Origin: Eledone cirrhosa
Lineage: Eukaryota
NCBI GenBank assembly: GCA_964016885.1
Contig: OZ024743.1
Coordinates: 358,732,001 to 358,796,000 of the forward strand
DNA length: 64,000 nucleotides
Reading direction: 5' to 3'
The notes beneath the pieces are model-generated. The model was not told where the DNA came from. It saw only the letters and a program-made list of their open reading frames with translations, and ran no database searches. Numbering within the stretch: the first letter of the stretch is position 1; each line of letters starts with the position of its first letter. A program made the translations under genes and the position numbers. Below, piece after piece: positions 40,391-42,853 of the stretch.

Positions 40391-40440
40391 CCATTACGAG
40401 CTGAGGATCCGCTAAGGTGAAACAATTGTTCTCGGTATGG
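40391..40440 (+). ncRNA. Minimal type I hammerhead ribozyme motif
   Basis: CCATTACGAG-CTGAGGA-TCCGCTAAGGT-GAAA-CAATTG-TT-CTCGGTATGG. Core intact, palindromic stem III, stem I CGAG/CTCG extended by CCAT/ATGG. Stem II is weak. Confidence 0.65.
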
Positions 40441-40483
40441 TGAACTAACTGTTGTGTAACCACATATATATATATATATATAT

Positions 40484-42344
40484 AACAAAGGAATTGTGGT
40501 AAGGAACCAGATGGACCATAACGCACCAGAGTACTCAATACTTAGGGTAGTAGAGTGGGAAATAGGAAAAAGTATGACCCCGACGGCAGAGCTCCAGCCG
40601 TTTCGACGGCTATTTCTGGACTAAATTAGAATTTTTACCTGGTGAATAAATAGCCGAACTTTTCAAGGGGGTACTTCCTTATATGGGAAGATTGTAGTTG
40701 CCAAGAGGATTGGTTAAAATTTGTTGTAAACACAAATAAATCTATCATGGCATTTGGTGGGAAGTAGGGGTGGCTGAACTTGCCTGTAGAACAATAGGGG
40801 AGTGAGTGGAGCGGTCAAGCGTTGAAAGTGATAAGTATACAGCAGATTCTAAGGATAGTGTATGAAGTGGAGGAGGGAGGTAATAGAAAAGGTAAATCGA
40901 ATGAGAGTAGGAGACAATAAAAGATAATAGAAAGAAATAAAAAAAAAATATAAAATTAGATAGTGAGAAATGAGTAAAAAAAATCACAATGCTATCTTAC
41001 AATTACAGGTTAATAATTTGAGAATAGAAAAAACTTGTAGAAATTGAGTAGTACCAGAAGTGATACAGAATTAAAGGGGTTTAACACGTCTGCTATAAGT
41101 AGTTAGAAAAACGTATTCGGCCAATTCTATCTTAAAATTACAGGGGTGGGGGAACTGATGCTACAGAGGCCCGATGGGCTGCATCGTGGTAGGCGAAGGG
41201 GAAAAGCAGACGAGGAAGAAAATAGGGGGTGGAAAGAAACAGGGGGAAGAAGAAGACAAAGAGGAAAAGAAAAGAGATACATCTACCTAAGTAAGCTGGG
41301 GTTTCCCCTAATTTATTCGGCAAGTAGGGGGGTATCAGCCCTTGTCTACCCACCCGGGTCGTTATGGGGTTTGAGGGCGAGGTAAGTCCTACGCAATCTG
41401 TGTTTACATGCGGTTACCAGTTCCTCTTTCTTGTTTAGGAGTTGGTCCTTCGAAAACAGCATTTGTAATGTTTCCTCCGAGCATAAGTTACACAGACGGC
41501 GTCCTCCCGTGTAAGAGTTAGCTTTGGACAGTAAGCTCCAAGTGAGATTGTAGGTTATATTATTATCTTGGAGGTCCTAGATGTGGCCCGAAAGTGTAGT
41601 GGCATGTCGCCGGACCGGGTTTCGGAAAGTATGTCGGTGTTGGTAGAGCCGGGTCTTGAAGTCACACGCGGTTAATCCTATATAAGCTTTGTTGGAGGTG
41701 TCCGTCCTCACGTTGCACTGGTAGATCACGTTGCGTTCTCGGCATTTGTTGTTGAGGGGGCAATTAGATCTATCAGGGCAGTTACACCTCCTGGTCGGCT
41801 CTCCACTGATGTCTAGGTTATTTCTTCCATAGGGTTGAGTTTTTTGTTGTTTGAGGAGATGATGTTTTGTGTGAAGTTAGGTGTGGTGCTGTAGGAGAGT
41901 TTGATGGTGTTTTTGTTGATTATGTTGTGGTAGCGGTGTTGTAGTGGGAAAGATTTTTCGAGGAGTCTAAAGAAGATTTTCCCGATAGGTGTTGCCACCT
42001 CGGTATTATGGGGAGGGTTGAACCACGTTACGTTGCGTGAGCGGCGGTGTCGCCTGCGGGATCCGCTAAGGGAAGCTGGATAAAAGGATATTTCCTCCCG
42101 GAAGCCACTCAGCTTGAGGGCCTGGTTGTAATGAGGCGCGTGTTCGTCAAATATCTGCTCATTAGCGGACAAGCGAGATATGCGGAGGGAGATGTTTTTA
42201 ACCAGGTTATTGGTGATGTTTCCAGGATGGTTAGGAGGAAATATCCTTTTATCCAGCTTCCCTTAGGAAGGCTAAAAATTCTAATTTAGTCCAGAAATAG
42301 CCGTCGAAACGGCTTGAGCTCTGCCGTCGGGGTCATACTTTTTC
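40484..42344 (-). mobile_element. 5'-truncated Penelope-like element (GIY-YIG, possibly Naiad-type) with an inverted partial pLTR
   Basis: VTWFNPP...IKLSYS, then CNCPDRSNCPLNNKCRERNVIYQC...YIGLT..FKTRLYQH...LSGHI*DL...CNLC..E...LNKKEELVTACKH. About 40566-40637 is repeated in inverted orientation at about 42273-42344. Flanked by (TA)n on both sides. Confidence 0.88.
40577..40672 (-). ncRNA. Type I hammerhead ribozyme motif with a variant core
   Basis: Minus strand: ACCCCC-TTGAAAA-GTTCGGCTATTT...AAATAGCCGTC-GAAA-CGGC-TGGAGCTCT-GCCG-TC-GGGGT. Stems I-III all form and the cleavage triplet is GUC. Confidence 0.65.
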
Positions 42345-42454
42345 ATATATATATGCAAAAGTTTTATTTAATATCGTATATGTAGAAGTTTTATTTAATT
42401 TATTGGGATACAACAAGCAAATATTTTTATAGTTTCCATTTGTTAATATATCGT

Positions 42455-42650
42455 GTATATATATATATATATATATATATATATATATATATATATATAT
42501 ATATATATAAATATATATATATATATAAATATATATATATATATATATATATATATATATATATATATATATATATATATATATAGAAAAGCTTCTACAG
42601 GACTAGAAGTGTTTCATTATATATATATATATATATATATATATATATAT
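42455..42650. repeat. (TA)n microsatellites
   Basis: Read directly. Similar tracts at about 40464, 49320, 62804 and 63860. Confidence 0.95.
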
Positions 42651-42796
42651 TTTGAGTATATGTTGGTTGTATACCAACACCTTAGTATGCAGATTAGAGC
42701 ACTCGACGAAGTGCGCAGGTTGGTTTGTTTACTCCGGAGTAATGTAAAATAAAATAAAATAAATAAGTCAAATGTTTAAATTTAGCTTCGTTTATT

Positions 42797-42853
42797 ACTG
42801 CTATATATATATTTCGGTGACAGCCATCTTTGGCTGTGACCTCTTCAGGCAGT
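42797..42853 (-). ncRNA. Minimal type I hammerhead ribozyme with a canonical core
   Basis: Minus strand: ACTGC-CTGAAGA-GGTCACAGCC-AAAGAT-GGCTGTCACC-GAAA-TATATATATA-GCAGT. 5-bp stem I, 9/10-bp stem II, palindromic (TA)n stem III. Confidence 0.8.

What the first reader, a model, noticed from the sequence alone, without database searches (positions are those of the whole stretch)
40391..42853. Cluster of three sequence-unrelated hammerhead ribozyme motifs within 2.5 kb, beside (TA)n tracts
Seen: hammerhead folds at 40391-40440 (+), 40577-40672 (-) and 42797-42853 (-), plus a half copy at 42273-42344 (+). Only one lies in a segment with a recognisable Penelope ORF; the other two are in short non-coding segments near (TA)n. 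Known: Penelope-like elements and retrozymes carry minimal type I hammerheads with palindromic stem III that can cleave as dimers, and some yield circular RNAs. Inference: a (TA)n hotspot collecting several ribozyme-bearing retroelement families, possibly undescribed non-autonomous ones. This is the best candidate for a novel system in the window.
Basis: partly seen in the sequence, partly recalled or inferred. Interest (0 to 1): 0.75.

Follow-up and report, generated by a model that had tools for sequence, protein, structure and literature searches.

The report
Stacked Hydra-type Penelope retrotransposon ends
The three hammerhead-ribozyme motifs are in the sequence, but each is the broken-off tail end of a different protein-coding Penelope-like jumping gene that lands in TA repeats, a known and here very common arrangement; the one part not found in print is a small shared hairpin that likely tells the copying enzyme where to start.

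Summary
All three hammerhead motifs and the half copy are real. Each motif is the 3' UTR/pLTR ribozyme of a separate high-copy Penelope-like family (2,985, 1,387 and 7,774 exact core matches). All five families have reverse-transcriptase ORFs in other copies, so the two 'non-coding' segments are 5'-truncated ends, not orphan non-autonomous elements. RWR/RWK, DKT, CxCx5C, no CCHH, C-terminal GIY-YIG and (TA)n ends place families A-C in the Hydra clade (Craig 2021), which already includes an octopus member. Head-to-tail retrozyme arrays were not seen. Stacking is real but ordinary: other-family hammerheads are about 5-fold enriched beside these ends, and 600 kb of unselected DNA held 24 motifs and one four-family cluster. 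GUU sites and the U3-A8 core are published variants. Not found in print: a bulged hairpin 6-8 nt past the short insertion end in four of the five families (17 nt in the fifth), likely an RT start signal. The scan noted this system and this hairpin before on other DNA. Cleavage and expression are untested.

The parts
40233..40463 (+). Family A Hydra-type PLE, 3' UTR only, tail-less (short) end; carries HHR1
   Evidence: 5' junction spanned by a contig with 0 differences in both runs laid
40385..40441 (+). HHR1, type I, 2-bp stem II, palindromic stem III, predicted GUU cleavage after 40430
40464..40483 (.). (TA)10 tract shared tail-to-tail by families A and B
   Evidence: sequence
40484..42234 (-). 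Family B Hydra-type PLE, 5'-truncated: RT thumb, CxCx5C linker and GIY-YIG (frame broken near 41831), 3' UTR, HHR2, long (tailed) end at 40484
40577..40672 (-). HHR2, type I, U3-A8 core, long stem II, stable stem III, predicted GUC cleavage after 40582
40530..40556 (-). Bulged tail hairpin of family B
42234..42348 (+). Inverted 5' piece of the family B insertion: flipped ORF bit (42234-42266) plus half hammerhead (42273-42348) ending at the short end
42356..42455 (.). Family D remnant: long and short terminal tips joined back to back, no hammerhead core
42456..42585 (.). (TA)65 tract
42586..42617 (-). Family E remnant: 3' half of a fourth hammerhead (GAAA, stem III, GUA site, 3' strand of stem I), short end
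42618..42650 (.). (TA)16 tract
42651..43440 (-). Family C Hydra-type PLE, 3' UTR only, long (tailed) end at 42651; carries HHR3
42698..42740 (-). Bulged tail hairpin of family C
42797..42853 (-). HHR3, type I, long stem II, AU-palindromic stem III, predicted AUA cleavage after 42802

Best explanation
The cluster is a pile of 5'-truncated ends of five protein-coding Penelope-like retrotransposon families (three typed as Hydra clade), likely built by separate insertions into one TA-repeat field, and each hammerhead motif is simply the one its family carries near the 3' end. Shown here: family identity, ORF partners, copy numbers, TA-bounded ends, two end positions per family, inverted geometry and local enrichment. 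Inferred from known PLE biology: the GIY-YIG endonuclease nicks TA-rich DNA; the RT starts inside the element RNA at one of two sites, giving a long tailed end and a short tail-less end; early termination or fold-back leaves short or inverted copies; each insertion stays flanked by TA, so the site remains a target. The hammerheads would act on full-length tandem element RNA. A and C are predicted to need a dimer or protein help, B to fold as a monomer. At this locus no two complete same-family motifs share a strand, so the remnants are most likely passengers.
For: Exact 23-nt core counts 2,985 (A), 1,387 (B), 7,774 (C), reversed-pattern controls 0. 15 of 19 other top A loci share further adjacent sequence, which translates as GIY-YIG where printed (output partly cut). 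At least 10 of 24 other top C loci print RT or EN ORFs. Long copies: L132, L263-L266 (A), L136 (B), L138 (C). D and E have an RT ORF just downstream of the hammerhead in tandem copies: L245 (1 of 20 loci) and L222, L223, L225 (3 of 20). Hydra motifs seen against PMC8557442 section 11. Two end classes, counted from the cleavage site: A +34/36 and +102, B +17 and +97, C +54 and about +150-155, D +50 and +140, E +10 and +89. (TA)4 follows within 20 nt in 38 of 45 B long ends and 33 of 44 C long ends, against 1.1% background. Close same-family pairs (<=5 kb) among the first 100 listed matches per family, counted by hand: 41 of 48 tails-out inverted, 4 direct, 3 tails-in. Other-family motifs: 34 in 172 kb of flanks (35 printed, one A-derived row dropped) against 24 in 600 kb unselected; L202 holds four families in 1.95 kb.
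Against: Clade assignment rests on motifs and on reading the published alignments by eye, not on a tree with reference sequences. Pfam gave no RT hit for these ORFs and only a sub-threshold GIY-YIG hit for C (E 0.0018). D and E are tied to an ORF by 1 and 3 loci only, and their EN motifs were not examined. Many D copies and short C copies are ORF-less fold-backs, so non-autonomous amplification of some is not excluded. There is no covariation within families. No cleavage or expression data. The order of insertions was not determined.
Confidence: 0.93

Rival explanations
1. Segments A and C (and D, E) are non-autonomous retrozyme-like elements that spread as small circular RNAs using PLE enzymes.
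For: They carry no ORF here. Short ORF-less fold-backs of C recur with about 240-260 bp between cores (L143-L147). 4 of 48 close pairs are direct, two at about 500 bp (L141, L142). Retrozymes are proposed to derive from pLTRs (bioRxiv 10.64898/2026.07.22.740005).
Against: The same DNA runs straight into RT/EN ORFs in other copies. 5' ends vary. The short fold-backs have different centres with arms 91-100% alike within a copy, as expected of independent events. No tandem array of the unit in the window. The defining 150-450 bp tandem organisation (PMC7229834) is not met.
Confidence: 0.05
2. The cluster works as a unit, for example as a co-opted RNA-processing cassette or by cleavage between families.
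For: All three complete motifs of the 64-kb window lie within 2.5 kb, and each keeps an intact core.
Against: HHR1 is on the opposite strand to HHR2 and HHR3 and the stem III palindromes differ. The copies are 93-98% like their families, so intact cores need no selection. Comparable stacks occur in 3 of 57 flank loci and 1 of 60 unselected 10-kb stretches.
Confidence: 0.015
3. Chance motifs or an assembly artefact at TA repeats.
For: No Rfam hit; weak folding z-scores for HHR1 and HHR2; no contig spans the whole stretch.
Against: Thousands of exact copies; cores kept in 25 of 27, 19 of 22 and 27 of 28 aligned copies (top-scoring loci); 36 motif families keep the fold with different stems; the A junction is spanned by contigs.
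Confidence: 0.005

Closest known systems
Hydra clade of C-terminal EN+ Penelope-like elements, including Hydra-1_Obim of Octopus bimaculoides (Craig et al. 2021, PMC8557442)
   Same: RT then GIY-YIG, RW[KR], DKT, CxCx5C linker, no CCHH, CxxC and CxH in the EN, 3' type I hammerhead, (TA)n insertion. GUU, GUA and GUC sites are all in its File S2. Family A's N-terminus resembles Hydra-1_Obim by eye.
   Different: None of the three hammerheads matches that of Hydra-1_Obim. B has a U3-A8 core and a 55-nt stem II region, whereas all Hydra motifs in File S2 have CUGANGA and short stems. HHR3 has an AUA site (File S2 Hydra sites are all GUH). Tails are 66-100 nt, not 30-40 bp. C has a 3' UTR above 1 kb.
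Minimal PLE hammerheads (Cervera and de la Pena 2014, PMC4209133)
   Same: Type I motifs in pLTRs, palindromic stem III, mostly single or opposite-strand pairs from truncated PLEs; U3-A8 covariant reported for Schistosoma Cercyon.
   Different: HHR2 has a stable 5-bp stem III (pair probabilities 0.83-0.98), so it is predicted to fold as a monomer. Estimated load here is about 1e5 motifs against up to 9,000 reported there.
Poseidon PAc of Anolis (Frangieh et al. 2024, PMC11167929)
   Same: Two internal RT start sites that define the tail, AT-rich cleavage, protein-assisted hammerhead.
   Different: Different clade; its hammerhead overlaps the start codon; its start region is an AC-rich stem-loop, not the bulged RCUC/GAGY hairpin seen here.
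Metazoan non-LTR retrozymes (PMC7229834; bioRxiv 10.64898/2026.07.22.740005)
   Same: Type I hammerheads in short non-coding, AT-rich repeats.
   Different: Retrozymes are head-to-tail tandem units of 150-450 bp with no ORF; these are inverted or single truncations of coding elements.
Naiad PLEs (PMC8557442)
   Same: (TA)n preference, inverted copies, tails; present in cephalopods.
   Different: Naiads have an N-terminal EN and lack canonical hammerheads.

Membership tests
Hydra-clade PLE | Single ORF with RT followed by C-terminal GIY-YIG | tested here: met
   B in one frame in L063 and L061; A and C in order across broken frames in L131, L132, L138, A also L267
Hydra-clade PLE | N-terminal RWK motif | tested here: met
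   RWR in A and B; RWK read from the DNA of C in L138
Hydra-clade PLE | DKG changed to DKT | tested here: met
   SDKT in A and B; ADKT read from the DNA of C in L138
Hydra-clade PLE | CxCx5C linker instead of CX2-5CxxC | tested here: met
   CSCRKPEAC (A), CNCPDRSTC (B), CNCRNPESC (C)
Hydra-clade PLE | No CCHH pair inside GIY-YIG; CxxC and CxH later in the EN | tested here: met
   Translations: CGLC/CPH (A), CNLC/CKH (B), CKLC (C; CRH)
Hydra-clade PLE | Insertion into (TA)n | tested here: met
   38 of 45 B and 33 of 44 C long ends; A 24 of 56 at the short end, most others continue as tail
Hydra-clade PLE | Hammerhead near the 3' end | tested here: met
   B's core is the U3-A8 variant
Hydra-clade PLE | RT tree placement with reference Hydra elements | not tested
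   Only by-eye comparison with the printed alignments
Hydra-clade PLE | The same protein motifs in families D and E | tested here: inconclusive
   RT 36-52% like family B; linker and EN motifs not examined
Non-LTR retrozyme | Head-to-tail tandem units of 150-450 bp, each with a hammerhead | tested here: not met
   41 of 48 close pairs tails-out inverted; no such array in the window
Non-LTR retrozyme | No coding partner in cis | tested here: not met
Non-LTR retrozyme | Expressed as circular RNA | not testable with these tools
   No RNA run was available to lay
Naiad PLE | N-terminal EN, no canonical hammerhead | tested here: not met
Hammerhead ribozyme type I | Core CUGANGA/GAAA (or U3-A8), stems I-III, NUH site | tested here: met
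Hammerhead ribozyme type I | Self-cleavage | not testable with these tools
   needs in vitro assay

The most novel reading that the evidence does not exclude
Hydra-clade PLEs carry a conserved bulged RNA hairpin (RCUC, variable inner stem, 1-2 nt 3' bulge, GAGY-RC) a few bases beyond each insertion end. It is the signal that sets the two internal RT start sites, and so explains the one-sided Penelope tail. Dozens of such families have loaded this genome with about 1e5 hammerhead motifs, including U3-A8 long-stem forms that standard searches miss.
Probability: 0.55. Interest if true: 0.6.

Novelty: new member of a known kind. Interest (0 to 1): 0.3.

Why it matters
As given, the finding is ordinary: truncated ends of a described retrotransposon clade in their described target. 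It still matters for annotation, since Rfam misses these motifs and the fragments look like unknown non-coding repeats. The side result matters more. The function of the PLE tail and of PLE hammerheads is open, and a short hairpin shared across families at a fixed distance from the insertion ends gives a direct mutational test in the published in vitro PLE assay.

Tried and rejected
Rfam scan: no hammerhead hit. Strict descriptor missed HHR1 and HHR2. Naiad and Nematis were my first guesses from memory; rejected after reading PMC8557442. GUU site and U3-A8 core as novelties: rejected, both in print. Pfam did not recognise the RTs. The protein search gave 1,103 relatives among 7,997 scored candidates; of the best 120 listed, the top is 52% identical and none carries an informative name. 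No RNA holder listed. Two contig runs of unrecorded kind, from one sample, were laid; they show presence only, and their depth was not used as copy number. The hand-built HHR3 structure energy (+3.7) came from a mis-set stem II and is not used. The alignment had one misplaced row and is not used. A second hairpin right after the long end was found for B and C only, not for A, D or E. Selenocysteine read-through was not examined. bioRxiv supplements are closed and those of PMC4209133 were not read; they may list further core variants or mollusc families. Repbase and Dfam were not available, so these families may already be catalogued there under other names.

Full report
Observation. The region 39000-45000 was read. 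A descriptor for type I hammerheads allowing the C3-G8 or U3-A8 core finds three complete motifs in the whole window, at 40401 (+), 40666 (-) and 42848 (-). The half copy at 42273-42348 is a 97% inverted repeat of 40562-40637. Shuffled DNA gives 0-3 hits per 600 kb. Rfam finds none, only HHR3 folds better than shuffles, and HHR1's lowest-energy fold is not the hammerhead. The motifs are real as sequence patterns; catalysis is untested.

What the pieces are. The window lies in a 3.0-Gb genome; an octopus-like host is inferred from the likeness of family A to Hydra-1_Obim and was not determined. Each hammerhead segment is a dispersed repeat: exact 23-nt core matches number 2,985 (A), 1,387 (B) and 7,774 (C), with 0 for reversed controls. 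For A, 15 of 19 other top loci share more adjacent sequence, and where printed it encodes a GIY-YIG endonuclease or RT (partly cut from view). For C, at least 10 of 24 other top loci print RT or EN ORFs. Longer copies show RT followed by EN for all three. The window holds only the 3' UTR of A (40233-40463) and of C (42651-43440), and 1.75 kb of B plus its inverted 5' piece. The UTRs share no DNA similarity, but the proteins are 28-44% identical. The two spacers between the TA tracts are tips of two more families: 42356-42455 (D, no core) and 42586-42617 (E, the 3' half of a hammerhead). An RT ORF follows the hammerhead on the same strand in 1 of 20 D loci and 3 of 20 E loci.

Clade. Craig et al. 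2021 (PMC8557442; I saw the abstract, sections 3, 11 and 12, passages, and supplement parts 1, 2, 52-54 plus search rows) define Hydra by RWK, DKT, a CxCx5C linker, loss of CCHH, CxxC and CxH motifs, canonical hammerheads and (TA)n insertion. A, B and C show these (RWR in A and B). The paper lists Hydra-1_Obim from Octopus bimaculoides, whose hammerhead differs from all three here, and many Hydra motifs with GUU sites. The U3-A8 core is reported for Schistosoma Cercyon PLEs (PMC4209133, parts 1-2 of 4 read). No tree was built.

Geometry and target. Each family ends at two positions after the predicted cleavage site: A +34/36 and +102, B +17 and +97, C +54 and about +150-155, D +50 and +140, E +10 and +89. 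(TA)4 follows within 20 nt in 38 of 45 B long ends and 33 of 44 C long ends, against 1.1% of random window positions; for A, 24 of 56 copies stop at the short end before TA and most others run on as tail. Among the first 100 listed matches per family I counted by hand 48 pairs within 5 kb: 41 tails-out inverted, 4 direct, 3 tails-in. This is the inverted-copy-plus-tail structure of PLEs, not the 150-450 bp tandem structure of retrozymes (PMC7229834, passages; bioRxiv 10.64898/2026.07.22.740005, part 1 of 5). In the window, B is one whole event, with the long end at 40484 and the short end at 42348.

Is the cluster special? Sixty unselected 10-kb stretches from two contigs hold 24 motifs, 0.04 per kb, and one of them (L202) has four families in 1.95 kb. 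The flanks of 57 non-overlapping loci picked by core pattern (8 overlapping loci left out) hold 34 other-family motifs in 172 kb (35 printed, one A-derived row dropped), about five times more. 24 of 57 loci have at least one other family and 3 of 57 have at least two. Stacking is therefore real and common. Scaling 24 hits less background gives about 1e5 motifs in the genome; this rests on two large contigs and a small count. All hits in the 260 loci then held fall into 36 clusters, 8 of them with U3-A8.

Mechanism. Shown: the items above. Inferred from PMC11167929 (main text read) and PMC8557442: nicking of AT-rich DNA by the GIY-YIG domain, RT initiation at two internal sites that define the tail, and a hammerhead that is protein-assisted and was not needed for insertion in vitro. 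HHR1 and HHR3 have self-complementary stem III words and are predicted to work as dimers or with protein; HHR2's minimum-energy fold is already the three-way junction. At this locus no two complete same-family motifs share a strand, so a locus-level function is unlikely.

Side result. A bulged hairpin (RCUC, inner stem, 1-2 nt bulge, GAGY-RC) lies within 200 nt downstream of the cleavage site in 9 of 36 families and upstream in 0 of 36; shuffles give a mean of 0.17 and at most 2; 5 of 36 families show it on the antisense strand of the same stretch. The motif was drawn from these same sequences, so the shuffle test flatters it, but the inner stems differ between families while staying paired. 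It starts 6-8 nt past the short end in A-D and 17 nt in E. A second copy lies 6-9 nt past the long end in B (L136) and C (L138); none was found for A, D or E. By eye it is also in the published Hydra-2_Amil, Hydra-1_Ajap and Hydra-2_Ajap consensi. 'Hairpin' and 'stem-loop' do not occur in that paper's main text, and searches listed no paper on it. The O. vulgaris repeat paper (PMC13282606, passages) has no mention of Hydra or hammerheads; the giant squid paper (PMC6962438, passages) counts 235 Rfam hammerheads. Of PMC11167929's relatives in the listings I saw titles and abstract starts only.

Earlier notes. After I had reached this reading, the scan's index showed 35 findings with the same key words in at least 5 genomes, and 13 on the tail hairpin; none lies near this window. 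They agree. Their 'twin hairpin' claim prompted, which supports it for 2 of 5 families. Their load estimates (200,000-400,000) are higher than mine and were not tested.

Verdict. Observation confirmed; interpretation partly supported. New families of a known clade in their known target. Interest 0.3, most of it from the hairpin.

Noticed in passing
window 43480-47560 (+): Broken Helitron-type Rep/helicase ORFs next to the 5' break of family C; PIF1 E 8.6e-65. The Helitron label is from recalled motifs.
   Followed up: partly
window 40405-40417 and 42059-42071: A 13-nt exact match between the HHR1 core/stem II and the antisense of family B's ORF, close to the edge of the segment that B's inversion copies. 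Probably chance, unexplained.
   Followed up: no
window 39990-40232 (-): Low-copy remnant with a VPVAVETSG motif recalled as a restriction-like endonuclease of a non-LTR element; family A begins at its edge. No Pfam hit.
   Followed up: partly
window 39599-39918: Short element with imperfect terminal inverted repeats, recalled as hAT/MITE-like; very high contig depth at 39800-39888.
   Followed up: no
L143-L150: Family C often forms 370-460 bp fold-backs with two back-to-back hammerheads, turning near a CATATG site about 120 nt upstream of the core; centres differ between copies.
   Followed up: partly
loci L001-L260: 36 hammerhead families, 8 with U3-A8, several with stem II regions of 45-62 nt; a second group lacks the bulged hairpin and shares other tail words.
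   Followed up: partly
window 43014-43165 and 43237-43387: Internal 150-bp duplication (78%) in family C's 3' UTR.
   Followed up: no
window 1190-1375, 13473-13658, 34261-34446, 61234-61652: A dispersed SINE-like family of about 190 bp, recalled as an octopus SINE, with a tandem pair at 61240-61652.
   Followed up: no
window 52000-56000: GC-rich stretch with strong strand skew and triplet repeats, possibly a low-complexity coding exon on the minus strand.
   Followed up: no
L235-L237 (C12, 17.0-17.5 Mb): Near-identical copies of a family E insertion recur at 60-180 kb spacing, suggesting a large tandem segmental repeat.
   Followed up: no
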